64,000 nt of DNA from Salinivirgaceae bacterium (GCA_017527435.1 JAFXQB010000005.1:165322-229321), one strand, 5' to 3'; positions 20,724 through 46,236 are shown, counted from the first letter of the stretch. Numbers and translations: made by a program. Notes: generated by a model from the sequence alone, not told the origin.

Positions 20724-20768
20724 TTGTTGAGACGGGGGTGTAGAGACGTGCCATGGCGCGTCTCTACA
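20724..20768. repeat. REP copy (left flank of the RAYT): half-site GTTGAGACG plus a 30-bp palindrome
   Basis: GTTGAGACG sits at 20726-20734, followed by TGTAGAGACGTGCCATGGCGCGTCTCTACA at 20739-20768. The latter is a near-perfect palindrome centred on CCATGG. Confidence 0.9.
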
Positions 20769-20843
20769 ATGGAATATGCAGAAACATTTGCGATTATCAA
20801 TCATAAAACATATATTCGTATCAAAATCAGAATTTTACACATT

Positions 20844-21413
20844 ATGTCCACCGAATTGTTTCATAATAAATATCGTGTTCCGTCGGCCCGAGCAGAATGG
20901 CACGATTACAGCGGTGGTGAATATTTTGTAACCATTTGCACAGGCGGCCGCGAACATTGGTTTGGCGAAATTTCAAATGGTGAAATGAATTTATCGGTTA
21001 TCGGGAAATATGCCGATGAATGCATTGTGAAAATGTCAACATTGCACAACGACATAACCGTGCCATTATGGGTGGTTATGCCCAACCATATACATTTGAT
21101 TGTAATTGTCAAATCAACGTCCGCAGATACGCCGCGTTGTGTAGAGACGCCATATTATGACGTCTCTACAATGGAACGTGCGAAAAACGAAAAAATGCAG
21201 GCCATTGCCAATGATTGCGGACGTTTATCACATATTATTTCACGATTTAAAACCGCCGTAACAAAATTCGCCCACGAAAACGCCATTCCATTTTCGTGGC
21301 AACCGCGTTTTCATGACCGCATTATTCGCAATCAGGACGAAATGAACGGCATTGCAGAATATATTGAAGGCAACGTGGCCAAATGGGAATCGGACGAATT
21401 TTATAATTCGTGA
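20844..21413 (+). CDS. REP-associated tyrosine transposase (RAYT; IS200/IS605-like Y1 HUH enzyme)
   Basis: 189 aa from ATG 20844. It has an N-terminal YRVPSARAEWHDYSGGEYFVTICT, the HUH motif MPNHIHLIV, a C-terminal FSWQPRFHDRIIRNQDEMNGIAEYIEGNVAKW with the candidate catalytic Tyr, and flanking REPs. Confidence 0.85.
   Translation: MSTELFHNKYRVPSARAEWHDYSGGEYFVTICTGGREHWFGEISNGEMNLSVIGKYADECIVKMSTLHNDITVPLWVVMPNHIHLIVIVKSTSADTPRCVETPYYDVSTMERAKNEKMQAIANDCGRLSHIISRFKTAVTKFAHENAIPFSWQPRFHDRIIRNQDEMNGIAEYIEGNVAKWESDEFYNS
21126..21170. repeat. REP copy embedded in-frame in the RAYT CDS
   Basis: gatacgccgcgttgTGTAGAGACGccatattatgaCGTCTCTACA. The left part matches the right-flank copy (gagacgccgcgttgtgtagagacg). 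The right end (ctctacaatgg) matches the left-flank copy. It translates as DTPRCVETPYYDVST between the HUH and Tyr motifs. Confidence 0.88.
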
Positions 21414-21462
21414 TTTGTTGAGACGCCGCGTTGTGTAGAGACGCGCCATGGCACGTCTCTAC
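21414..21462. repeat. REP copy (right flank of the RAYT)
   Basis: GTTGAGACG sits at 21417-21425, followed by TGTAGAGACGCGCCATGGCACGTCTCTAC at 21434-21462. It starts right after the RAYT stop codon (21411-21413). Confidence 0.9.
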
Positions 21463-21627
21463 GAAGGGTACCAATATTATGTATTTTCCCATTTCCAAAA
21501 AAATTTCCCCTTCCCTATGCAACAATCTTAATATTAAATCCATACCTTTAAACAAAAGTTTGTCGGCCTTGTTCGCGCAAGCGCCGCGATTTTGACATTG
21601 TTTTATAAATTCTTAATTATCAGAATT

Positions 21628-27673: not shown

Positions 27674-27707
27674 TGCCGGGCGGTGGAGTAATCCGCCACA
27701 CTACTCG

Positions 27708-27925
27708 CGCAACCATTTCAACTTCCGCAGCGTCTGCATAATAGTGCGAAAAGTTTTTTAACTTTGGCAAATGGCGTTTAGTAAAACGTGCTATACGTGC
27801 GTTTTAACGATGAAGTAAAACGAAACATTGTATTGTCTCGATTCAAGAATTTGACAGGAGAAAATTTTTATAATGTGTTTGAAACTATGGTAAAAGAGAC
27901 GTTAAAAAATAATCATGAATTATGC
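27708..27925 (+). repeat. Conserved promoter plus 5' leader block, copy A (homologous to 41433..41650)
   Basis: cgcaaccatttcaacttccgcagcgtctgcataatagtgcgaaaagttttttaactttggcaaatggcgtttagtaaaac aligns with 41433-41506. Patchier similarity continues to taatcatgaatta. Confidence 0.75.
27759..27766 (+). promoter_or_regulatory. Bacteroides-type -7 box TAACTTTG
   Basis: It is an exact match to the TAnnTTTG consensus. It sits in the palindrome AAAGTT-tttt-AACTTT and is conserved in copy B. No convincing -33 TTTG. Confidence 0.5.
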
Positions 27926-28410
27926 AATCAGCATCTAAAAAATTCAAAAATAAAACCGAATATTATCGGGAGTTTATATGTTGGTTGTTACTTCTAATTG
28001 TTTTTGTTGTTGGAACAATAGATACTTTGATAACACCAGAACAAGAGTTTGTTGATTTTTTTCTTAACCGAGATTTAATCGGCGGTGCTCACCAAAGAAG
28101 AAATATTTTGATAGAGAAGTTTATCGTAAGCCATTGGGGCAGAACAGGAATGCAAGTGGTGATTGCTGTTGGAATCATTCTGCTAATCAATAAAATTCGT
28201 GACAATATTTGTGCGTACCGCCGACTATTATTCCGAGAAAAACTAATCCGCGAAGGCTTGCGCGCCCCCGATGATTATGTGGATGATTACGTACGAATTC
28301 CATTATGGAAGAAGGTTGCCAACCTGTTTACCAAAAAACGGAAAAAGAAATACCCTTCGGAGCGAGAAATGCGTGATTCGCTAAAGAAGAACAAATACTA
28401 TAAGGAGTAG
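27922..28410 (+). CDS. Hypothetical small membrane protein (2 predicted TM helices, Lys-rich tail)
   Basis: 162-aa ATG ORF in a strongly AT-rich segment. TM segments are FICWLLLLIVFVVGTI and MQVVIAVGIILLI. No family recognised. Confidence 0.5.
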   Translation: MQSASKKFKNKTEYYREFICWLLLLIVFVVGTIDTLITPEQEFVDFFLNRDLIGGAHQRRNILIEKFIVSHWGRTGMQVVIAVGIILLINKIRDNICAYRRLLFREKLIREGLRAPDDYVDDYVRIPLWKKVANLFTKKRKKKYPSEREMRDSLKKNKYYKE

Positions 28411-28440
28411 GGCAAATCGGCAGTCAATCAGTGTGATAAA

Positions 28441-28534
28441 ATCTGCGAACCCCGATAATTATCGGGGCCGTTAAATCTGCGTTCCCGATAGTTATCGGGA
28501 CTGCGTTCAAAAAAATCTGTGCGAAAATAAAACG
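28441..28534 (+). repeat. Tandem atctgcg-plus-CCCGATA hairpin units followed by the tctgcgttcaaaaaa motif
   Basis: Unit 1 is atctgcgaa + CCCCGATAATTATCGGGG (28450-28467, a perfect 18-bp palindrome). Unit 2 is atctgcgt + TCCCGATAgtTATCGGGA (28483-28500). They are followed by ctgcgttcaaaaaaatctgtgcgaaaataaaacg. Related copies occur at 43141-43198 and 43917-43950. Confidence 0.8.
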
Positions 28535-28574
28535 TGGTTGGCGGCCTTGCAAGGTTAAATGATGTGCCAATGGC

Positions 28575-28636
28575 GTAGAGACGCGGCGCAGAAAAATCAG
28601 CAAAAATCAGTTAGTTCCGCATCTTCTGCGTTCAAA
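28575..28636 (+). repeat. Decayed REP half-site plus aaaaatcNgc tail (homologous to 43044..43146)
   Basis: GTAGAGACGcggcgc lacks a right arm. It is followed by aaaaatcagcaaaaatcagttagttccgcatcttctgcgttcaaa, which aligns with gaaaaatctgcgcaaatctgttcaatctgcgtcgtctgcgttcaaa in the second island. Confidence 0.7.
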
Positions 28637-34127: not shown

Positions 34128-37082
34128 ATGAAAAGATTTTTGGTCTTTCTGTTTGCCGTTGCGTTTGCCGGACAGGCGTGGGCAGATGAAGTAAATTTCG
34201 ATTTCTCTGCCGTATGCAGCAGTGGACAAACTTTGTATTACAAAATAATAAGTAGTACAGAAGTTGCAGTCACATTCCCGAATCGTTCGACAGGCGGCTA
34301 CGATGGCTACAACAAACCATCAGGAGCCATTGTTATTCCGGAAACAGTTGTTCACCCAGAAACCGGTGTGTCGTATAGTGTTACAAGCATTACCGCCGGC
34401 GCTTTTTATTATTGTGATATAACATCAATCAGTCTTCCTAATTGCATTACTAACGTTGGCATGTGGGCGTTTGGCGATTGGGACAAATTGCAATTTAATG
34501 AAGAAGAAGACGCAAAGTATTTGGGTAATGCAGAGAACCCGCATTTATGCCTAATGCGTGTAAAATCAGAAAACATTACAACATTCGAGATTAATAACAA
34601 TTGCAAGTGCATATCAGGAAGTGCGTTTAGTGGTAGCGGATTAGAATCAATAACTATTCCTAATAGTGTTGCAGGTATTAGCGAATCTGCCTTTGATGGT
34701 TGTGGGAAACTACGGGCAATAACCTTTGGCAACGGTATTAAAAAAATTGGTAATTATGCTTTTTCTGGTTGCAGCAAGCTTTATTCCATCAGCATACCCA
34801 ATTCAGTAACAAGTATTGGCGATTACGCATTTGAATATTGCAGCAACCTTTATTATGTTACTCTTGGCAGCGGCATTGAAACCATCGGCACAGATGCTTT
34901 CAATAATTGTCCGATTGAAACTCTAACCTATAACAGCAATATTGCAGGCTCAAAACTCGATGGATTAACAACGCTTAAAACTGTTAATGTGGGCAACCTG
35001 GTTACAAGCATTGGCAATGGTGCGTTTAAAAACAGCAGCGGTCTGACAGCAATAAACGTATCGGAAGAAAATAATGATTTTTGCTCAATTGACGGTGTGG
35101 TGTTCAGCAAAGACAAAAAAACACTGATACGTTGTCCGGCCGGAAAATCAGGCTCATACACCATCCCCGACGGTGTTACAGCTATTGGTAAGTATGCGTT
35201 CTGTGGTTGCAAAAGCCTTTCTTCGGTAACAATACCTAACAGCGTTACAAGCATCGGCGACTTTGCGTTCTATCAATGCCACGGCTTGGAATCAATTGCT
35301 ATCCCCGAAAGTGTAGAAAGTATTGCCGACAATGCATTTGGCAGTTGTTTAAAATTGAAATCGATAACTATCCCCGGTTCGGTAAAAAGTGTTGGTAACT
35401 CGGCATTTTCGATGTGTGTTTTGGAATCGGTAATTTTTGAAAATGGCGTTACAAGCATTGGAAGCTCTGTGTTCAGCAATTGCAAAAAACTGAAATCGGT
35501 AACCATTCCTAATTCTGTGACAAGTATTGGACAAAGTGCTTTCTATGAATGTAGTAATTTGGAATCGGTCACTCTTCCAAACAACATTACAAGTATTAAA
35601 TATGGTATGTTCAGCGGTTGCAGCAGTCTGCCGTCAATCAATATCCCTGAAGGTGTCACAAGCATTGCCGACTATGCGTTCAATGGTTGCAGTAGTTTTA
35701 CATCGATAACTATTCCGGGTTCGGTGACAAGCCTGGGCCATGGAGCATTATATGGTTGCAGCGGACTAACAGCAGTATGTATTCCTGAATCAGTAACAAG
35801 TTTCGGGAAGTATGTTTTTAAGAATTGTACCGATTTGGCGGGAGTTTGTTATGAAGGATGCAACGTTCCCGAATTTGGTGAAGCAATGTTCGATGGTGAT
35901 GACGGTTTAAACTATGTGTGCGTACCGGCAACGTATATGGGCGATTCTTGGGGTGGTAAGCCAACAATGAAAAGCGGACACCAAGTAACAACCGAGCCGG
36001 CAACCGCCACTTGCACTGAACCAGGGCTGTCAGAAGGCTCGTATTGCTCATGCTGCGGAAAAGTTTTCGCAACACCGCACGAAGTAGCTGCATTAGGTCA
36101 CAGCTACAGCACCACCGTTGTTACCCCAACTTGTACCGAAGTAGGTTACACAACGCACACCTGCTCTGCATGCAGCTATATGTATAATTCAGACACGGTT
36201 GCAGCCAAAGGCCACAAAGCCGATAGTGTTGAATTTGAGAATATTATACCGGCAACCTGCACCGCCGCCGGCTCAAAAGATTCTGTGGTTTTCTGCTCGG
36301 TTTGTCAACTTGAAATGAGTCGCGAAGAGCGTGCCATTCCAGCTCTCGGCCATACCGAAGTTGTGAATGAAGCTGTGGCGCCAACCTGCACTAAAGCCGG
36401 CAAGACCGAAGGAAAATACTGCTCTGTTTGCAATGCGGTGATTAAACTGCCGATTGCTATTCCGGCCACCGGCCATACAGCAGACAGTGTTGCGTTTGAA
36501 AACGTTGTGGCCGCAACCTGCACCGTTGCCGGCACAAAAGATTCGGTGGTCTATTGTTCGGTTTGCCAAGATGAGTTGTCACGTGAGACAAAAGAGATTC
36601 CGGCCAAAGGTCACACCGTTGTTATAGACGAAGCTGTTGAGCCAACCTGCACCAAAACAGGATTGGGAGAAGGCAAGCATTGTTCTGTTTGCAATGAATA
36701 CGATTGGACACAAGAACTTATACCACCATTAGGCCACGATTTTGGCAAGTACGTTTATAACAACGACGCCACTCTTGAAGCGGATGGCACTGAAACCGCC
36801 ATATGCTCACGTTGCGGCGAAAAAGACACCCACGTGGCCGAAGGCACCAAACTGAATGCCACCGCCGTTTCCGATGCTGCCAGCACGTTGAACATCTACG
36901 CCAACCACAACATTATTGTGGTTGAGAACGCCACCGATGAAATCCGTGTTTATGACGCAATGGGCAAATTAATTTGTAGGGACGTGGCGTGCCGCGTCTC
37001 TACAACCGAAATTCGCGTCACAACCCCCGGCGTTTACATTGTCAAAACCGGCAACGCAGTTAAACGGGTGGTGGTGAATTAA
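34128..37082 (+). CDS. Secreted BspA-type leucine-rich-repeat protein with Cys/His tandem repeats and a T9SS type A C-terminal sorting domain
   Basis: 984 aa. It has a signal peptide (FAVAFAGQAWA) and about 20 LRR_5-like units (IPNSVTSIGDYAF..C..L). Seven GH..PTCT..G...C..C repeats follow. The C-terminus LNIYANHNIIVVENATDEIRVYDAMGKLI...PGVYIVKTGNAVKRVVVN is typical of Por/T9SS tails. Confidence 0.85.
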   Translation: MKRFLVFLFAVAFAGQAWADEVNFDFSAVCSSGQTLYYKIISSTEVAVTFPNRSTGGYDGYNKPSGAIVIPETVVHPETGVSYSVTSITAGAFYYCDITSISLPNCITNVGMWAFGDWDKLQFNEEEDAKYLGNAENPHLCLMRVKSENITTFEINNNCKCISGSAFSGSGLESITIPNSVAGISESAFDGCGKLRAITFGNGIKKIGNYAFSGCSKLYSISIPNSVTSIGDYAFEYCSNLYYVTLGSGIETIGTDAFNNCPIETLTYNSNIAGSKLDGLTTLKTVNVGNLVTSIGNGAFKNSSGLTAINVSEENNDFCSIDGVVFSKDKKTLIRCPAGKSGSYTIPDGVTAIGKYAFCGCKSLSSVTIPNSVTSIGDFAFYQCHGLESIAIPESVESIADNAFGSCLKLKSITIPGSVKSVGNSAFSMCVLESVIFENGVTSIGSSVFSNCKKLKSVTIPNSVTSIGQSAFYECSNLESVTLPNNITSIKYGMFSGCSSLPSINIPEGVTSIADYAFNGCSSFTSITIPGSVTSLGHGALYGCSGLTAVCIPESVTSFGKYVFKNCTDLAGVCYEGCNVPEFGEAMFDGDDGLNYVCVPATYMGDSWGGKPTMKSGHQVTTEPATATCTEPGLSEGSYCSCCGKVFATPHEVAALGHSYSTTVVTPTCTEVGYTTHTCSACSYMYNSDTVAAKGHKADSVEFENIIPATCTAAGSKDSVVFCSVCQLEMSREERAIPALGHTEVVNEAVAPTCTKAGKTEGKYCSVCNAVIKLPIAIPATGHTADSVAFENVVAATCTVAGTKDSVVYCSVCQDELSRETKEIPAKGHTVVIDEAVEPTCTKTGLGEGKHCSVCNEYDWTQELIPPLGHDFGKYVYNNDATLEADGTETAICSRCGEKDTHVAEGTKLNATAVSDAASTLNIYANHNIIVVENATDEIRVYDAMGKLICRDVACRVSTTEIRVTTPGVYIVKTGNAVKRVVVN
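36975..37004. repeat. REP-family palindrome inside the LRR protein CDS
   Basis: TGTAGGGACGtggcgtgccgCGTCTCTACA is in frame as CRDVACRVST within the C-terminal sorting domain. Confidence 0.85.
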
Positions 37083-37112: not shown

Positions 37113-37141
37113 TGTAGAGACGATGTATACATCGTCTTTAC
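37113..37141. repeat. REP-family hairpin 30 nt after the LRR gene stop (probable terminator)
   Basis: tGTAGAGACGATGTA-TACATCGTCTTTAC is followed by T-rich sequence (tttttttact) and preceded by aatctgcgtaaat. Confidence 0.7.
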
Positions 37142-41384: not shown

Positions 41385-41417
41385 CAAGGCTGCCTGATTG
41401 GGCGGCCTTGTTTTATT
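41385..41417 (+). terminator. Rho-independent terminator of the 37399..41336 operon
   Basis: caaggctgcc-tgattg-ggcggccttg forms the stem, followed by TTTTATT. Confidence 0.7.
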
Positions 41418-41432
41418 ATCGACAGGCAACCC

Positions 41433-41650
41433 CGCAACCATTCCCGCCTCCACCGCGTCATATAACTGCAAAAAGTTTTAACTTTGGCTTATGGTGTTTA
41501 GTAAAAACAGATGACAATCCATTGAATAAATGAGAGGAAAGTTTGTTTTATAATCTTGAAAAAAATGACGAAAGAAAAAATACAATTCGTAAGGGTAGTA
41601 CTAAGGATATAATGGATTATGAAAAACTGTACACTAATCATAGGGAATTA
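41433..41650 (+). repeat. Conserved promoter plus 5' leader block, copy B (homologous to 27708..27925)
   Basis: cgcaaccattcccgcctccaccgcgtcatataactgcaaaaagttttaactttggcttatggtgtttagtaaaaac matches copy A. Patchy similarity continues to taatcatagggaatta. Confidence 0.75.
41479..41486 (+). promoter_or_regulatory. Bacteroides-type -7 box TAACTTTG
   Basis: It is an exact TAnnTTTG match at the same position in the conserved block as 27759-27766. It sits in the palindrome AAAGTT-tt-AACTTT. Confidence 0.5.
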
Positions 41651-41709
41651 TTTTATAAATATCAAATAAACCATATTTATAAAACTCACAAAACTTATAA
41701 TGCAAGCAA

Positions 41710-42831
41710 ATGAAAAAGTTTATAATTCTGTTGCTATTGTTTATTTGTATAAACGGCAATTGTCAAAGCATAGACGAGATTTTGACAAAATTTGAACAAA
41801 TACAAAGTTATGCACGGCATCGCCTACTTAATTATCGCAGCTACCGCTACAGGCCTTTGCAAGATTTTAGTAGCGAATTGCCATTTAGTTTTGGATTAAC
41901 ACATTTAGACAATCCCACTTATAATGGGTTTGATTTATCGACACGAGGTGTTTTTTCCGATTCCTCTATGCAGATGCGCATACTTCAATTATTGAATAAT
42001 GAATTCTACGATGGTGAGGTTGACGACTTGTGGAAAAAAGATATGCAAAAAAACAATTATGCAAATTTGACTGATAGTTTGTTGCGCATAAAAAGGATAG
42101 AAAGAGAAACTTGTTATAAAAAGTATATTGATGAAAATGAATTGGTTGATTTGTTGGAAATTTGCACATACATAAATAACAAGCAAATAATCAAAAGAAT
42201 TGAAGAAATTTACAAAGACACCACATACCGCAAAAATTGGGCAGATGCTTACGCTTGTCTTGTTGCCAACCATATAGAGCCATATACTTCAGAATGTCTC
42301 AAAAAATATAGGTATAAGAAAGAACAATCATATGAAGAACAAGTATTGGCATGCAATTATTTATGGCTGATTCAAACTCAACAATCATTTAGGTACTTAT
42401 CTGAATATTTATTTTCAGATAAGTACTACACAAACATTATATGCGAAGATAATACGTATGAATGCGAGTCATTGGATGACATTATTGTTGAGATAGATTG
42501 TGAATCGGGAGTTGCAGATACGATTATTAAATGTGAAAATAATACGAATAAAGGCGATACATTGAAATACGATATTGATGTAGATTATATTGATTTAGAA
42601 GATGAAGATACAAATCCAATAATAGCGGAATGGGAATATAAAACATATTTGTATTGGGGAGTTTTCTCTATTATCCAAAAGAGCATTTTAAATCTAGACT
42701 TGTATGACATGCTGGGCATAACAAATGACATATTTGTATCTCAAGAATTCTTGACAGAAGAAACTCGTAAAAAGATTTATAATTGGATGCAGGAAAATTA
42801 TGGTAAGTATAAAATCAAGAATCGTTGGTAA
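41710..42831 (+). CDS. Hypothetical secreted protein (AT-rich, Cys/Asp/Glu/Tyr-rich)
   Basis: 373 aa with a signal peptide (MKKFIILLLLFICINGNCQS). AT content is very high. No family recognised. Its ATG overlaps the stop of a 33-codon upstream ORF (ATGA). Confidence 0.6.
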   Translation: MKKFIILLLLFICINGNCQSIDEILTKFEQIQSYARHRLLNYRSYRYRPLQDFSSELPFSFGLTHLDNPTYNGFDLSTRGVFSDSSMQMRILQLLNNEFYDGEVDDLWKKDMQKNNYANLTDSLLRIKRIERETCYKKYIDENELVDLLEICTYINNKQIIKRIEEIYKDTTYRKNWADAYACLVANHIEPYTSECLKKYRYKKEQSYEEQVLACNYLWLIQTQQSFRYLSEYLFSDKYYTNIICEDNTYECESLDDIIVEIDCESGVADTIIKCENNTNKGDTLKYDIDVDYIDLEDEDTNPIIAEWEYKTYLYWGVFSIIQKSILNLDLYDMLGITNDIFVSQEFLTEETRKKIYNWMQENYGKYKIKNRW

Positions 42832-42899
42832 TAAAAGAAATTTGTGTCGCATATTTCGCAAAATACTATCAATATGAAGAAAACAAAACCAACTAAACC

Positions 42900-42989
42900 A
42901 TGCCAAACCTTAGAAAACTACTAATGGTGCTGCTGTGTGCTGTCTGCGGTACGGCAGCGGGGCAAACCTACACCACAAAAACGCAATGA
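42900..42989 (+). pseudogene. Possible remnant of a secreted-protein gene (signal peptide only)
   Basis: The GC-normal 29-codon ORF MPNLRKLLMVLLCAVCGTAAGQTYTTKTQ* looks like a signal peptide followed immediately by a stop and repeat-derived sequence. Speculative. Confidence 0.3.
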
Positions 42990-43043
42990 AAAAATACCGC
43001 AAGGCTTGCCGGGAATGCCGGGGTTGTATGGGGTGCCCTTAAC

Positions 43044-43198
43044 GTAGAGACGCGGCGCGCCACGTTTGTGCAGGTGGCGGGCGTTAGTGAAGCATAGAAA
43101 AATCTGCGCAAATCTGTTCAATCTGCGTCGTCTGCGTTCAAAAAATCTGCGTACCCCGATAGTTTATCGGGACTGTGTCGTCAGTGCGAGAATAAACA
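43044..43198 (+). repeat. Composite REP-derived tail, copy B
   Basis: GTAGAGACGcggcgcgccaCGTTTGTGC is a REP with a decayed right arm. It is followed by gaaaaatctgcgcaaatctgttcaatctgcgtcgtctgcgttcaaaaaatctgcgta, then CCCGATAgttTATCGGG (43154-43170), then gtgcgagaataaacac. The same modules occur at 28441-28636 in a different order. Confidence 0.75.
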
Positions 43199-43206
43199 CA
43201 ATTTTT

Positions 43207-43214
43207 TAAATTTG
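43207..43214 (+). promoter_or_regulatory. Candidate -7 box TAAATTTG
   Basis: It is an exact TAnnTTTG match 16 nt upstream of ATG 43230. Confidence 0.45.
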
Positions 43215-43229
43215 ACACATTAAAACTTG

Positions 43230-43865
43230 ATGGATATGAAATCAATAGTTGCCGTTATCGCGTCGCTGACATTGCTGTTTACGGGGATTTATATCGCTCT
43301 TATGCTTAGAATCAATTCCACACCAGGAGCATTCAACTATCCAGCCAGTAATATCTCGGAACCCAACAGACAAGCGATAGAAAAAACACTGAAAGTATTT
43401 CAAGAAGGTTACACGTTGCGCGATGTGTCGAAAATCGACGAGTGCATAGCCCAAACCATCGACACCGCTTCGATTTTTATTTTGGGCACCAATCCCAACG
43501 AAATATTCGAGGGGAAAGACGGGGCGCAGGCGCTGCTATATGGCGATTGGACATATTGGGGCAGTGTGAAATATGACATCGACCGCCTTTATGCCAACCA
43601 AATCGCCGACAGCATTGCTTATGTGGTTTTCCCAGGAAATATCACACTTGATGTTGGAAAAATGAACTTCCCACTGCAAGTTACAGGCTTGATGGCGCAA
43701 GATGAGGACGGCCAGTGGAAATTCTCGAAAATGCAGTTCATATATGGTTGGAACACCAATTATATCATCTTCGCCCGCATTGCGGCTTACGGAACCCTGA
43801 TTCTACTGGCAGCGCTGCTGGCGTTTATCTGCATCATAAGGTGCGTATTGAGCCGAAAGAAATAA
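43230..43865 (+). CDS. Hypothetical membrane protein with a possible NTF2/SnoaL-like (DUF4440-like) central domain
   Basis: About 211 aa, with the start at ATG 43230 or 43236. It has N- and C-terminal TM helices. The central region (IEKTLKVFQEGYTLRDVSKIDECIAQ...QWKFSKMQFIYG) resembles NTF2-fold proteins from memory only. Confidence 0.5.
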   Translation: MDMKSIVAVIASLTLLFTGIYIALMLRINSTPGAFNYPASNISEPNRQAIEKTLKVFQEGYTLRDVSKIDECIAQTIDTASIFILGTNPNEIFEGKDGAQALLYGDWTYWGSVKYDIDRLYANQIADSIAYVVFPGNITLDVGKMNFPLQVTGLMAQDEDGQWKFSKMQFIYGWNTNYIIFARIAAYGTLILLAALLAFICIIRCVLSRKK

Positions 43866-44200
43866 GGAATACATTCCGTTCTGATTCTGTGTCGTCTGTG
43901 TGATATAAAATCTACGTTATCTGCGTTCAAAAAATCCATGCAAGAACAAACGCAAAATGCTGTGTAGCTGCTAGTTTGGTAGCGTTTTTTATGCAGTTTC
44001 GAAAAAAAATTTAATACCCACGCAACCTTTTCACAAACACCAGCGTCTTGGAAACGTGAAAAGTAATTCCGATGACTGCAAACATCGATTTAATTTGCAG
44101 ATTGAAATTAATATCTATATTTGTTGATATGAAAACTTGTTTTAGCAACAGTGAAAAAATCATGCATGACAGGCATAACCTGCTGAATGCCAGCATTTTA

Positions 44201-44225
44201 CCCCCCCCCCCCCCACCCCACCCCA
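44201..44225. repeat. Homopolymeric tract C14-A-C4-A-C4-A (G-quadruplex-capable on the minus strand)
   Basis: Direct count: 44201-44214 are all C, then a cccc a cccc a. It lies 121 nt upstream of ATG 44346. Confidence 0.95.
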
Positions 44226-44345
44226 CGCTCAGATAATCTCACTTGCAATAAAAAAAATGAGCAGCCTTCACGGCCGAGCATTTTCAATGTCACTAGACTA
44301 ATTCCATTTTTTAATAATTATTGTTTAACTCTTAAATCATTTTTT

Positions 44346-45395
44346 ATGAAAAAATTATGTGTTTTTGGAATGCTGTTACTGTCCACAGCAGCTATGGCTC
44401 AGTATGGAACCAATGGCGAATCGGGCAGATACCACGTTGTTAAATTCCCAAAGTACTATGTGGAGCAAGACCAACGGACATTTGCTGTTAATGTTGACAT
44501 TGCGACAAAGAAAGTCGCAGGCTATGTGGATGCCGAAGAATTGGCAGAAAAAGTGCGGTTCAAAGGTTGGTCAAAAACACCTGAAGACAAAGCTTATTTG
44601 AATATTAAAATCACGTTAGGCGAGTTTCTTTATCTTTCAACAGAAATACTTGATCAATCTGTTGATGAAAAGCAAAAAGACGGTAGCGTTAAACGCAAAC
44701 CTATTTATGTAGGTTCTTTTAAGTATTCTTTCCCCATCACTCTCTCTCTGACATCGCCTGTCAACAATGATAAGTATCGTCTTAACCAAGATGGGATGAT
44801 GGTTAAGACTCTGACTTATACCGATGACCACAAGTTTTCAACCCGTGCTGATGCTTCTGCGTTTATGAAAGAAAACAGAGATGTTCTTAGTGAAAAAGTT
44901 ATTAGACAACTTGCGAACGAAGCAGCCGCAAGTGCGGTAAATTCGGCCGTTATTGATTATGGTTTCGCAAGCACAACCGAAAAAGCATCTTATGTTTTCT
45001 TAGATTCAAAAAAGAATCCTCACTATGAATCTCAAAAGAACGCTAATACACAACTTAAAGAGATATTCAAGACAAGTTCTGCTGATGAACCAATTAGTTC
45101 TGATGCGTTAACTCCAATTATTGAAGAATACATTAGCATAATAAACGAATTGAATGATGCTGATAAAAAGCAACTGAAAGCTAAAATTGAGCTTATAACT
45201 TCTGTTGCAGAGTTCTATCTTATGCTGGATGATCTTGCATCATGCGAAACTTGGGCCAAACGCGCGTTTGACGAATATAAGGAGAAAGATGGTTCAAAAA
45301 TTTTGGAAAAAGCAGCCGCAGTGAAGGCTTTGTTTGACAAGCACCATGTTACTTCACGCCATTTTGTTCCGCAAGCTCCTGCTGTTGAAGAATAA
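44346..45395 (+). CDS. Hypothetical secreted protein
   Basis: 349 aa from ATG 44346 (MKKLCVFGMLLLSTAAMAQ signal peptide). The track start 44187 reads through the poly-C tract and is rejected. The C-terminal third is helical and Lys/Glu-rich. No family recognised. Confidence 0.6.
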   Translation: MKKLCVFGMLLLSTAAMAQYGTNGESGRYHVVKFPKYYVEQDQRTFAVNVDIATKKVAGYVDAEELAEKVRFKGWSKTPEDKAYLNIKITLGEFLYLSTEILDQSVDEKQKDGSVKRKPIYVGSFKYSFPITLSLTSPVNNDKYRLNQDGMMVKTLTYTDDHKFSTRADASAFMKENRDVLSEKVIRQLANEAAASAVNSAVIDYGFASTTEKASYVFLDSKKNPHYESQKNANTQLKEIFKTSSADEPISSDALTPIIEEYISIINELNDADKKQLKAKIELITSVAEFYLMLDDLASCETWAKRAFDEYKEKDGSKILEKAAAVKALFDKHHVTSRHFVPQAPAVEE

Positions 45396-45429
45396 TATTA
45401 CTTTTAATAACAATTAATAATTAACAAAA

Positions 45430-46236
45430 ATGAAAACAAATCTTATTAGTATTGTTGCCACAACTGCTGTTATGGCTTTATTCCTTTCTTGCGACGGTCC
45501 TGATTATATCGGGGAAGAAAACGGTCATGAATATGTAAATCTTGATTTGCCAAGCGGCACCATGTGGGCGAGATGCAACATAGGCGCTGATCGTGCTTCG
45601 GGAAACGGCAACTATTATGCTTGGGCCGAAACCAGCACAAAGACCAACTACTCGTACTCATCATATTTCTATATGGATGAGAACAATAATTCTTGGAAAG
45701 GGTATACAAAATATACCATTCCCGATGGACAATATTCTGCCTATTGGTATGAGGATTATGTATTCAGCGGTGACCGAAAGACTAAATTGGAAGATGGTGA
45801 TGATGTGGCATTTCAGTCTTGGGGCGGAAAATGGAGAGTTCCCACCAACCTACAATTGGCAGAGCTTAAGAATGAGTGTTATTGGGTGTATACCACTAAT
45901 TACAACGATTCAGGCGTTGAAGGATTCATCGTCTATAAGGCTAAAACAAGCTCTGACAAGGGCAAAAACTCTAAAACCAGCACGGCTTCAGGCAGTTATG
46001 ATATTTCTTCCGACGCAAATATCTTCCTTCCCTTATCTGGATATCGTTATAATTTGAATGTCAATAGAGTTGGATCAGAAGGCAACCTTTGGTCAAGTTC
46101 ATTATCAGAAGAATATACTGACTATGCCAATTGCTTGACTTATTCTTCTTATGGTTCCGCATCTGTCAGCTCACTGGAACGTATTTATGGTTTGAACATT
46201 CGTGCCGTTTGTGTTAATCCGGGAGATGCAGAATAA
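45430..46236 (+). CDS. Lipoprotein with a FISUMP (Fibrobacter succinogenes major paralogous, TIGR02145-like) / DUF1566-like domain
   Basis: 268 aa with lipobox LFLSCDG. The motifs MWARCNIGA..GNYYAW, GGKWRVPTNLQLAEL, IFLPLSGYR, GNLWSSS and the terminal YGLNIRAVC follow the FISUMP pattern as I recall it. Confidence 0.6.
   Translation: MKTNLISIVATTAVMALFLSCDGPDYIGEENGHEYVNLDLPSGTMWARCNIGADRASGNGNYYAWAETSTKTNYSYSSYFYMDENNNSWKGYTKYTIPDGQYSAYWYEDYVFSGDRKTKLEDGDDVAFQSWGGKWRVPTNLQLAELKNECYWVYTTNYNDSGVEGFIVYKAKTSSDKGKNSKTSTASGSYDISSDANIFLPLSGYRYNLNVNRVGSEGNLWSSSLSEEYTDYANCLTYSSYGSASVSSLERIYGLNIRAVCVNPGDAE

What the first reader, a model, noticed from the sequence alone, without database searches (positions are those of the whole stretch)
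27708..27925. Same promoter and long 5' leader drive two unrelated AT-rich genes 13.7 kb apart
27708-27790 and 41433-41510 align over about 80 nt, with roughly four of five positions identical by hand alignment: cgcaaccatt..c..c.gcgtc..ata..gc.aaaagtttt(tt)aactttggc..atgg.gtttagtaaaa. The block contains an exact Bacteroides -7 box TAACTTTG (27759-27766 and 41479-41486) nested in the palindrome AAAGTT-N-AACTTT. Recognisable similarity continues about 130 nt further into the presumed 5' UTR. Examples are attcaagaatttgacaggagaaaattt versus attgaataaatgagaggaaagttt, and taatcatgaatta versus taatcatagggaatta. The similarity stops where two unrelated, strongly AT-rich ORFs begin: a 162-aa two-TM protein and a 373-aa secreted protein. 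A shared promoter and leader with swapped cargo resembles integron-like or rAID-like cassette arrays, or a shared cis-regulatory RNA. No recombinase is present in the window, and the copies sit between housekeeping genes.
Basis: seen in the sequence. Interest (0 to 1): 0.65.

Follow-up and report, generated by a model that had tools for sequence, protein, structure and literature searches.

The report
Portable promoter on swappable gene cassettes
An ~83-base promoter-like block is repeated in front of unrelated, AT-rich accessory genes in an uncultured gut/rumen Bacteroidales bacterium, and related genomes show the genes behind it being swapped like cassettes, at least one being a stranded "immunity-type" gene with a stump of its partner gene.

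Summary
The shared block is real: 27706-27790 and 41431-41511 align far above chance (z about 21). A third, partial copy lies at 44021-44064. The claimed shared long leader is not real (z -0.8). The leader of the second gene is instead the 3' stump of a metallopeptidase gene.

In 11 distinct copies from related metagenomic genomes, the block heads at least seven unrelated cargo genes. One locus (downstream of an AMP-ligase gene) carries different cargo in different strains. One cassette, 97.8% identical, sits in two unrelated contexts.

The block reads GCAAC-17 nt-CGTC, then 19-25 nt, then TAnnTTTG. That is an ECF-sigma-like -35/-10 pair followed by a Bacteroidetes housekeeping -7 box. No RNA structure, covariation or Rfam match was found. 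No recombinase was found in the 64 kb window.

Best reading: a portable promoter module at the head of accessory, partly orphan-immunity-like, gene cassettes in a rearrangement-prone variable island. It resembles rAID/integron arrays but fails their membership tests: there is no adjacent recombinase, and each cassette has its own promoter. I rate it a new variant of a known kind, of moderate interest. Promoter activity, the sigma factor and the recombination mechanism are inferred, not shown.

The parts
27706..27790 (+). Block copy A (A-type). GCAAC at 27709-27713, a 17-nt spacer, CGTC at 27731-27734, and the -7 box TAACTTTG at 27759-27766, followed by ATGGCGTTTAGTAAAA.
   Evidence: (R1 model, 85 bits, E 8e-25).
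27791..27850 (+). A-type conserved 5' segment. It is 95-100% identical in L003, L025 and L016 although the ORF behind it has diverged. A predicted 10-bp hairpin at 27782-27806 overlaps it and is followed by UUUU.
27851..27921 (+). Variable part of leader A (about 65% identity between variants). One reading frame stays open up to the cargo ATG in all variants, but the peptide has no database homologue.
27922..28410 (+). Cargo A: a 162-aa protein with two predicted TM segments and no Pfam, NCBIfam or PADLOC match. Its family has 72 clusters, two of them labelled Salinivirgaceae MAG by NCBI. The first 100 codons are 61-67% identical between variants and the last 63 codons about 90%.
28440..28508 (+). 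3' module of cassette A: AATCTGCG repeats and two palindromic hairpins (28451-28466 and 28484-28499), ending in GGACTGCGTTC. It folds strongly (z = -5.3). It is the right edge of the unit shared with L003.
28509..28636 (+). Right-flank repeats: a half REP palindrome (GTAGAGACGCGGCGC) and AGAAAAATC...TCTGCGTTCAAA. They are shared with 43022-43142. The rearrangement junction with the L007 strain lies at about 28625.
   Evidence: (D13, D15).
41386..41414 (+). Terminator-like hairpin plus T-run downstream of the AMP-ligase fusion gene. It lies directly upstream of block B and is conserved with L017, L025 and L026, and partly with L003 and L041.
41431..41511 (+). Block copy B (B-type). GCAAC at 41434-41438, a 17-nt spacer, CGTC at 41456-41459, and the -7 box TAACTTTG at 41479-41486, followed by ATGGTGTTTAGTAAAA.
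   Evidence: (81.9 bits, E 7e-24).
41512..41551 (+). B-type 5' segment. It is still shared with L017, which has the same locus but different cargo. L002 and L032 share it only to about 41518.
41552..41712 (+). 3' stump of a metallopeptidase gene (the ORF call is 41543-41713). Its last 54 codons are 72% identical to the C-terminus of the large L018 protein. The match starts just after that protein's HELGH..H motif.
   Evidence: E 7e-24.
41710..42831 (+). Cargo B: a 373-aa protein with an N-terminal signal peptide (by eye) and a predicted all-alpha helical repeat fold. Homologues at 41-79% identity lie directly after metallopeptidase-domain genes, overlapping them by 4-8 nt.
42884..43011 (+). 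Segment where similarity to L017 resumes after the swapped cargo. It contains a 29-aa signal-peptide-like ORF fragment at 42900-42989.
43022..43190 (+). Right-side repeats of locus B: a REP palindrome, AATCTGCG repeats, the hairpin 43155-43171, and ...ACTGTGTCGTCAGTGCGAG.
43227..43865 (+). 212-aa TM/SnoaL-like gene of the island (the SnoaL_3 hit, E 0.005, is below the Pfam cut-off). Its 87%-identical homologue in L041 is fused directly to a block copy at the -7 box.
44021..44064 (+). Third, partial block copy. GCAAC (44022-44026), the 17-nt spacer and CGTC (44044-44047) are intact, but the rest of the block is absent. A different TATATTTG follows at 44116-44123.
   Evidence: (E 0.008; this copy was not used to build the model).
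44347..46236 (+). Two co-oriented AT-rich ORFs behind the third copy: 341 aa with a signal peptide, and 268 aa. Neither has a family match.

Best explanation
The repeated block is a portable promoter module. It has two parts. The first is an ECF-sigma-class -35/-10 pair, GCAAC-17 nt-CGTC. The second, 19-25 nt downstream, is a housekeeping sigma-ABfr -7 box, TAnnTTTG. The module sits at the head of single-gene, AT-rich accessory cassettes, which end in a hairpin module (AATCTGCG...CCCGAT..ATCGGG...GTGCGAG).

The cassettes belong to a variable island. In related genomes this island lies between the AMP-ligase fusion gene and the PFOR gene. In the window strain a rearrangement whose junctions lie in the island's own repeats has separated it into two parts. 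That is why two full copies lie 13.7 kb apart, with a third partial copy 2.6 kb further on.

Cargo is exchanged between strains and loci by recombination that uses the conserved head and tail modules. At least one cargo, the 373-aa gene, is an orphan of a metallopeptidase/partner-gene pair and still carries the 3' stump of the metallopeptidase gene. This is the pattern of orphan immunity modules.

Shown: the repeat, its anatomy, its association with many cargos, the swaps, the gene stump, and the absence of RNA structure.

Inferred: that it fires as a promoter, that an ECF sigma factor reads it, that the cargos are immunity genes, and how recombination occurs.
For: 1. The repeat is real, and the window holds two full copies and one partial copy. 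All are on the + strand, intergenic, and upstream of AT-rich ORFs.

2. Eleven distinct copies head at least 7 cargo types:
- 2-TM A-family: winA, L003, L025, L016, and, with a B-type block, L032/L045
- 373 aa: winB
- 174 aa: L017
- 128 aa: L002
- 422 aa: L026
- 208 aa: L041
- 341 aa: third window copy

3. The AMP-ligase locus carries different cargo in different genomes: 373 aa (window), 174 aa (L017), an A-family gene (L025) and 422 aa (L026).

4. Cassette A is 97.8% identical over 27706-28508 in L003, while the flanks are unrelated at 25-31% identity.

5. GCAAC and CGTC are invariant in 11/11 copies. The spacer is 17 nt in 10 of 11, although 13 of its 17 positions vary. The distance from CGTC to the -7 box varies from 19 to 25 nt. 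The conserved block starts 2-4 nt before GCAAC. The third copy keeps only this half. ECF promoters typically have AAC at -35, many have CGTC at -10, and some have a T-tract after AAC (PMC5758882). TAnnTTTG at -7 is the sigma-ABfr consensus (PMC7366714).

6. Fusion points to cargo differ, but all full copies keep the -7 box. Fusion falls right after it in L041, 13 nt after in L026, and about 26-67 nt after in the others.

7. The B leader matches the metallopeptidase C-terminus (E 7e-24). Homologues of cargo B overlap the stop codon of such genes.

8. AMP-ligase and PFOR flank one island in L007/L010 and L026. In L041 only the PFOR end of such an island is seen, and that locus starts at a block copy. 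The junction with the window arrangement falls in the TCTGCGTTC repeats.
Against: - No transcription data are available. The -33 TTTG partner of the -7 box is absent.
- The ECF reading rests on consensus resemblance in copies that are related by descent. No ECF sigma gene was seen in the window.
- Only cargo B has evidence linking it to a toxin-like partner, and that partner is only a Reprolysin-like metallopeptidase domain, not a proven toxin. The peptide encoded by leader A has no homologue. All cargos lack family matches. The model of cargo B has no structural match.
- A-family genes also occur without the block: L026/L041 after an AAA_14 gene, and L036-40 inside a uxaC-kdgK operon. The block is therefore not obligatory.
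- Exact-pattern scans found few copies: 2 loci among 185,579 species genomes and 4 among JGI metagenome contigs. The pattern covered only the 3' half of the block, so the scans probably undercount.
- The right edges of the shared units are not sharp: 28508 against L003 and about 28588 against L016/L025. This fits homologous or illegitimate recombination, but it leaves the mechanism open.
Confidence: 0.6

Rival explanations
1. This is a true site-specific cassette system, integron- or rAID-like. A recombinase encoded elsewhere in the genome would insert and excise the cassettes. It would use a site in the block (for example around ATGGYGTTTAGTAAAA or the AAAGTT-N-AACTTT palindrome) and the 3' hairpin module as attI/attC-like partners. 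The promoter would be the platform's Pc equivalent.
For: - The head and tail modules are conserved, and the left edge is sharp.
- The 3' module of cassette A folds into a long imperfect hairpin (z -5.3).
- The same cassette occurs in two contexts with unrelated flanks and no flanking homology.
- L041 looks like an empty site, with the block fused to the next gene.
- rAID systems are defined by conserved intergenic motifs, and polyimmunity loci often adjoin XerC/D genes (10.1101/471110, PMC12247911, PMC3482391).
Against: - No recombinase was found among the window ORFs scanned or among the precomputed gene calls of the fetched loci.
- Cargo junctions behind the block are scattered over about 70 nt rather than falling at one crossover point.
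- The right edges vary.
- The hairpin module also follows the non-orphan metallopeptidase/partner pairs (L018-L024), as an ordinary terminator would.
- The copies are dispersed singletons rather than one array.
Confidence: 0.2
2. The block is a selfish or neutral intergenic repeat of REP/BIME or MITE type. It happens to contain promoter-like words, and its position before AT-rich genes only reflects the hotspot where both accumulate.
For: The same intergenic regions are full of other repeats: GTAGAGACG..CGTCTCTAC palindromes, AATCTGCG runs and hairpins. Rearrangement junctions fall within these repeats.
Against: - Every copy is oriented towards a downstream ORF.
- There are no terminal inverted repeats or target-site duplications at the edges.
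- Only the two short motifs and their spacing are invariant, while the spacer sequence varies.
- The -7 box is retained at every fusion, including the shortest ones.
Confidence: 0.12
3. The block is a shared structured leader or cis-regulatory RNA, or the two loci are a simple duplication of one gene whose copies have diverged.
For: Short uORFs (MAFSK...) follow the -7 box in most copies (and reading).
Against: - Leader similarity is at chance level (z -0.8).
- The proteins are unrelated.
- The block does not fold better than shuffles, and there is no covariation.
- There is no Rfam match even at E <= 1.
- Most of the block lies upstream of the likely transcription start.
Confidence: 0.03

Closest known systems
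rAID-1 (recombinase-associated acquired interbacterial defence) arrays of Bacteroidales (Ross et al. 2019, 10.1101/471110; PMC12247911)
   Same: AT-rich short genes sit in a GC-richer Bacteroidales genome. A conserved non-coding motif is repeated in front of unrelated genes. Content varies strongly between strains. At least one cargo looks like an orphan of a toxin-like/partner pair.
   Different: There is no XerD-like recombinase at the head, either in the 64 kb window or in the fetched loci. The units are dispersed singletons or pairs rather than arrays of up to 31 genes. The 212-aa member has 45.5% GC. Whether the motif matches the rAID motif could not be tested, because the papers give logos only and no rAID sequence was obtainable.
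Integrons (IntI, attI, Pc, attC cassettes)
   Same: A promoter lies at the insertion point, and interchangeable single-gene units end in an imperfect hairpin. L041 resembles an empty platform.
   Different: There is no IntI and no recognisable R''/L''-L'/R' attC organisation. Every unit has its own promoter copy instead of sharing one Pc. Junctions are not at one fixed point.
Orphan toxin-CT/immunity modules of Rhs, CDI and other polymorphic toxin loci, and polyimmunity loci (Zhang et al. 2012, PMC3482391)
   Same: Cassette B consists of the 3' end of a C-terminal metallopeptidase-domain gene plus the gene that overlaps that gene's stop codon in the intact pairs. Intact pairs exist in other genomes.
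   Different: The stump is not preceded by conserved pre-toxin coding sequence that would allow it to be grafted onto a full-length toxin. It is preceded by a promoter module, which would express the partner gene alone. The toxin and immunity functions are not demonstrated.
ECF sigma factor promoters (e.g. B. subtilis sigma-M/V/W/X class; PMC5758882) and the Bacteroidetes sigma-ABfr promoter (PMC7366714)
   Same: GCAAC, a 16-17 nt spacer and CGTC, with a T-rich stretch after AAC, match the ECF pattern. TAnnTTTG matches the -7 consensus.
   Different: There is no cognate sigma factor, no mapped TSS, and no -33 TTTG. ECF motifs are barely characterised in Bacteroidota.

Membership tests
rAID-1 | A XerD-like tyrosine recombinase gene (>=44% identity to BF9343_RS08045) at the 5' end of the cluster | tested here: not met
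   Pfam scans of about 45 window ORFs found only housekeeping or unknown proteins and no integrase or recombinase domain. None appears among the precomputed Pfam calls in the fetched loci. The rest of the genome could not be searched.
rAID-1 | Two or more co-oriented downstream genes with <=41% GC | tested here: inconclusive
   The run 41710-46236 has four co-oriented ORFs with GC of 31.4, 45.5, 38.7 and 41.0%. Cassette A is a single gene at 37.4%.
rAID-1 | The conserved intergenic sequence motifs of the family | not testable with these tools
   A repeated intergenic block exists here. The rAID motifs are published only as figure logos, and no rAID locus sequence could be fetched.
rAID-1 / polyimmunity locus | Cargo homologous to known immunity genes | tested here: inconclusive
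   There is no Pfam, NCBIfam or PADLOC hit. Homologues of cargo B lie directly after metallopeptidase-domain genes. For cargo A there is no such evidence.
Integron | An IntI integrase with adjacent attI and Pc | tested here: not met
   No integrase was found in the window or the loci.
Integron | Promoterless cassettes ending in attC (R''-L''...L'-R' with GTTRRRY cores) | tested here: not met
   Each unit carries its own promoter block. The 3' module consists of short perfect palindromes plus AATCTGCG repeats. By eye, one GTTAAAT word fits GTTRRRY without the paired RYYYAAC core.
Orphan toxin-fragment/immunity module | A 3' fragment of a toxin gene followed by its cognate downstream gene | tested here: met
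   Met for cassette B only. ORF 41543-41713 matches the C-terminal 54 aa of the L018 metallopeptidase protein at 72% identity (E 7e-24), starting after the HELGH motif. The toxin nature of the partner is inferred.
Sigma-ABfr (Bacteroidetes housekeeping) promoter | TAnnTTTG at -7, TTTG near -33, and a TSS a few nt downstream | tested here: inconclusive
   TAnnTTTG is present in all 10 full copies. No TTTG is visible at about -33 in the sequences. The TSS is not testable.
ECF sigma-dependent promoter | AAC-containing -35, CGT(C) -10, a 16-17 nt spacer, and a cognate (usually autoregulated) ECF sigma factor | tested here: inconclusive
   The sequence features are met in 11/11 copies, with an invariant spacer length and a variable spacer sequence. 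No sigma gene was available to test, and the copies share ancestry.
Structured cis-regulatory RNA / known Rfam family | A conserved secondary structure with covariation, or an Rfam match | tested here: not met
   Fold z-scores are +0.86 and +0.65. RNAalifold gives -7.8 kcal/mol with a covariation term of +0.11. There are no Rfam hits apart from one chance-level hit outside the block.
MITE / IS-derived element | Terminal inverted repeats and target-site duplication | tested here: not met
   The edges CCGCAACC... and ...GGACTGCGTTC or ...GTGCGAG are not inverted repeats. The flanks in the window and in L003 show no duplication. There is no match in the plasmid or phage collections.

The most novel reading that the evidence does not exclude
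A dispersed, recombinase-free (or trans-served) counterpart of rAID/integron arrays. In it, each orphan immunity-type cassette carries its own copy of a stress-responsive ECF-sigma promoter. One envelope-stress sigma factor would then switch on a strain-specific, swappable set of defence genes scattered through the chromosome of rumen and gut Bacteroidales.
Probability: 0.2. Interest if true: 0.7.

Novelty: new variant of a known kind. Interest (0 to 1): 0.5.

Why it matters
If the block is an active, regulated promoter, it shows how horizontally acquired AT-rich genes obtain ready-made expression signals in a GC-richer Bacteroidales host. It would also link orphan immunity-type genes to a possible single regulator. 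It offers a simple sequence tag (GCAAC-N17-CGTC...TAnnTTTG) for cataloguing the accessory or defence gene pool of an uncultured, livestock-associated lineage. It would extend the rAID/polyimmunity idea from arrays with a recombinase to dispersed, self-promoted cassettes. The conserved head and tail modules also coincide with rearrangement breakpoints, which matters for assembling and comparing these MAGs.

Tried and rejected
- **Shared leader:** alignment against shuffles gives no signal.
- **Paralogous cargo:** rejected.
- **Structured RNA:** single-sequence folds, RNAalifold, and Rfam at gathering and at E <= 1 all found nothing.
- **Leader A as a toxin stump:** the 44-aa frame-2 peptide has no homologue, so this stays unresolved.
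- **Cargo function:** Pfam, NCBIfam and PADLOC gave nothing. The AlphaFold model of cargo B (pLDDT 64.6) is an all-alpha repeat with no PDB match better than E 0.6.
- **Known mobile DNA:** no blastn match in plasmids or phages, and no hit in viral contigs.
- **Palindrome as a dimer operator or crossover site:** the AAAGTT-N-AACTTT spacing differs between types (2 and 4 nt), so I did not adopt it.
- **TIR or TSD at cassette edges:** none found.
- **Pattern design:** my collection scans used the 3' half of the block.
- **Direct comparison with rAID-1 motifs:** impossible, because the text of the papers gives no sequences.

Full report
**1. What is in the sequence**

A local alignment scores 67, against 14.9 +/- 2.5 for 500 dinucleotide-preserving shuffles (z = 20.9). 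The block contains TAACTTTG at 27759-27766 and 41479-41486.

The downstream 'leaders' (27791-27921 and 41511-41709) are no more alike than shuffles (z = -0.8). The two ORFs are unrelated (DNA z = 0.8; BLASTP E = 3.6). The core observation therefore stands, but the claimed 130 nt of further similarity does not.

Both ORFs are AT-rich, at 37.4% and 31.4% GC. Their neighbours are near 57%.

Pfam annotation of about 45 window ORFs gives ordinary housekeeping genes and no recombinase. They include PBP1, TrpRS, Tex, DXS, H+-PPase, RNase R, an AlkZ-related protein, PFOR, LeuA, an AMP-ligase fusion, QueA, TruB, FtsX, SbcCD, DnaE and GldH.

**2.

The 3' sides of both loci also share repeats: 28553-28636 matches 43022-43142 (D13/D15). 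CCCGAT..ATCGGG hairpins, preceded by AATCTGCG words, occur in the whole window only at 28451, 28484 and 43155.

A third, partial copy of the block lies at 44021-44064, in front of two more AT-rich co-oriented ORFs. A sequence-only model built from nine other copies (R1) recovers it independently at E = 0.008. The model finds nothing else in the window.

**3. Related loci**

The exact-pattern scans returned few loci. Together with look-ups of the cargo proteins and their homologues, they gave 45 loci. These come from animal-gut and rumen metagenomes and from MAGs that NCBI labels Salinivirgaceae or Bacteroidetes (Bacteroidales).

Eleven distinct block copies were found:

| Cargo behind the block | Copies |
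|---|---|
| 2-TM 'A-family' protein, A-type block | window A, L003, L025, L016 |
| 2-TM 'A-family' protein, B-type block (rnpA locus) | L032/L045 |
| 373-aa protein | window B |
| 174-aa protein | L017 |
| 128-aa membrane protein | L002 |
| 422-aa protein | L026 |
| 208-aa protein | L041 |
| 341-aa protein (partial block) | third window copy |

Three comparisons show cassette-like behaviour.

- **Different cargo at one locus.** Directly after the terminator of the AMP-ligase gene, strains carry 373-aa (window), 174-aa (L017, with 92% identical flanks), A-family (L025) or 422-aa (L026) genes.
- **The same cassette in two contexts.** L003 matches window 27706-28508 at 97.8% identity, while both flanks are unrelated at 25-31%.
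- **Mosaic conservation within the A-type units.** Against L025 and L016 the block is 84-91% identical and the next 60 nt 95-98%. The rest of the leader and the first 100 codons are only 61-67%. The last 63 codons are 90%.

A-family genes also occur without the block.

**4. The 'leader' of the 373-aa gene is a gene stump**

Homologues of the 373-aa protein (41-79% identity; a small family of 16 clusters) lie immediately after large proteins. They overlap these by 4-8 nt. The large proteins run off the contig ends, and the longest fragment seen is 816 aa. Their C-terminus is a Reprolysin-like zinc metallopeptidase domain.

The window ORF 41543-41713 matches the last 54 residues of that protein at 72% identity (E = 7e-24). 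The match begins just after the HELGH..H motif. Cassette B is therefore the downstream partner gene plus a catalytically dead 3' fragment of its upstream neighbour. This is the pattern known for orphan toxin/immunity modules (PMC3482391).

That the pair is toxin and immunity is an inference from gene arrangement. No family or structure match supports it.

For cassette A, an open frame runs through the leader in all four variants, but its peptide has no homologue.

**5. Anatomy of the block**

Across the 11 copies the order is GCAAC, a spacer, CGTC, a variable stretch, then TAnnTTTG.

- The spacer is 17 nt in 10 copies and 16 nt in one, and 13 of its 17 positions vary.
- GCAAC and CGTC never vary.
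- The stretch between CGTC and TAnnTTTG is 19-25 nt.
- The conserved region begins only 2-4 nt upstream of GCAAC.
- The third window copy keeps exactly the GCAAC-N17-CGTC half and nothing else.
- In the window, GCAAC-N16-17-CGTC occurs only at these three places (chance expectation 1.64 anywhere in the window).

AAC at -35, CGTC at -10, and a T-rich stretch after AAC are the usual marks of ECF sigma promoters (PMC5758882). TAnnTTTG is the -7 element of the Bacteroidetes primary sigma factor (PMC7366714). No -33 TTTG is visible.

All ten full copies keep the -7 box, although the point where cargo-specific sequence begins is scattered. It falls directly after the box in L041, 13 nt after in L026, and about 26-67 nt after in the others.

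Invariant short elements, fixed spacing, free spacer sequence, an edge at the -35 element and variable downstream junctions are together what selection on promoter function would leave. It remains an inference. The copies share ancestry, and there are no transcript data.

The block shows no RNA structure signal and no Rfam match.

**6. Why there are two copies 13.7 kb apart**

In L007/L010 the order is AMP-ligase, block, 373-aa gene, 212-aa gene, PFOR. These are two assemblies of one sample, and L007 is the GTDB representative MAG. In L026 the AMP-ligase and PFOR genes again flank one island of cassettes and AAA_14 ATPase genes. L041 shows a similar island ending at PFOR, but that locus begins at a block copy and the AMP-ligase gene is not in it.

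The join between the L007 arrangement and the window falls at window positions 43911 and 28625. Both lie within TCTGCGTTC-type repeats. The window arrangement is itself supported by independent assemblies (L004-L006, L008, L009).

The simplest reading is one variable island whose parts were separated by a rearrangement through its own repeats. The direction of the change is not established.

L041 fuses a block copy, at the -7 box, directly to the homologue (87% identity) of the window's 212-aa gene. This is either an empty state or a deletion between two similar -7 regions.

**7. Mechanism and rivals**

I favour a portable promoter module that travels with, or is retained in front of, accessory cassettes. 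Exchange would be by homologous or illegitimate recombination through the head and tail modules (confidence about 0.6). The ECF part on its own I put at about one in three.

A dedicated site-specific system (integron- or rAID-like, with the recombinase encoded elsewhere) is not excluded (0.2).

- For it: the unrelated flanks of the identical cassette in L003, and the strongly folding 3' module (z = -5.3).
- Against it: no recombinase was found, junctions are scattered, right edges vary (28508 against about 28588), and the hairpin module also follows intact metallopeptidase/partner pairs, as a terminator would.

A purely selfish repeat (0.12) does not explain the constant orientation or the conservation pattern. 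A shared RNA leader or simple gene duplication is contradicted by the tests (0.03).

**8. Comparison with known systems**

The behaviour is closest to rAID-1 arrays and polyimmunity loci of Bacteroidales (10.1101/471110; PMC12247911; PMC3482391), and more loosely to integrons.

Membership fails or is untestable on the defining points:

- There is no adjacent XerD-like recombinase.
- There is no array.
- One member exceeds the GC threshold.
- The rAID motif is not available for comparison.

One fetched locus (L029) does show an rAID-like array of at least nine AT-rich small genes. It has a different repeated intergenic motif and contains a distant A-family member. This shows that the same cargo pool circulates between the two kinds of arrangement.

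I class the finding as a new variant of a known kind.

Noticed in passing
window 44201-44214 (with ACCCCACCCC following): A run of 14 C lies between the third block copy and the 341-aa secreted-protein gene. The fetched stretches of two independent assemblies (L009, L011) end at or within a few bases of this tract. It could be a slipped-strand (phase-variable) tract or simply a sequencing breakpoint.
   Followed up: partly
window 20738-20772, 21141-21169, 21433-21467, 36974-37008, 37114-37140; half copies at 28575, 33252, 43044: REP-like palindromes GTAGAGACG(N)CGTCTCTAC are scattered in intergenic regions. In L016 (about 2003-2850) a DUF3800 gene sits between the two halves of such a palindrome, as if it had been inserted into it.
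   Followed up: partly
window 28625 and 43911; L007 8160-8340; L010: The GTDB representative MAG of this species (CAMJCK010000015.1) joins the 212-aa gene directly to PFOR. It lacks cassette A, and its first 1.5 kb (a MutS gene) has no counterpart in the window. This is a strain-level rearrangement whose junctions lie in short repeats.
   Followed up: partly
L029 2427-8327: An array of at least nine co-oriented small genes with 25-38% GC. A different repeated intergenic motif recurs in it (TTACCTTTGCA...AACCAGCCGTTTGACGTTAGCAGCGACGTAGCGGGGACGCTACGCCGAACG). The array contains a 36%-identical A-family member and looks like an rAID-type array in another organism.
   Followed up: partly
L036-L040 (e.g. 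L036 1378-1869): An A-family gene (74% identical to cargo A) lies 20 nt after uxaC and before kdgK, that is, inside a hexuronate operon. It has no block and no hairpin module.
   Followed up: no
window 27772-27819 and 41492-41515: A short ORF starts at the conserved ATGG just after the -7 box. It reads MAFSKTCYTCVLTMK* in A-type copies and M(A/V)FSK(N/S)R* in B-type copies (window B, L002, L017). In A-type copies it overlaps a 10-bp hairpin followed by UUUU, which looks like an attenuator. It is absent from L026 and L041.
   Followed up: partly
window 42900-42989: A 29-aa ORF fragment, MPNLRKLLMVLLCAVCGTAAGQTYTTKTQ*, looks like the signal peptide of a lost lipoprotein gene. The DNA is conserved with L017 although the cargo in front of it differs.
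   Followed up: no
L003 988-2322; L017 1-830; L026 2644-3945 and 5388-6530; L041; L032 4619-6094: AAA_14/DUF4143 (or ATPase_2) ATPase genes recur next to the cassettes in several genomes. They have different paralogues at different loci, and their role is unknown.
   Followed up: no
window 34128-37082: A 984-aa BspA-type leucine-rich-repeat protein gene that is AT-rich (38-44% GC) in its 5' part and has internal 261-bp and roughly 200-bp DNA repeats. It lies between the two block copies and is absent at this position in the L007 strain.
   Followed up: no
L018 residues 72-104 versus 539-592 of the partial metallopeptidase protein: The large protein upstream of the cargo-B homologues contains a second, weaker copy of its own C-terminal motif (MDY..ELF.KYQ..IH). 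This suggests tandem peptidase-like modules.
   Followed up: no
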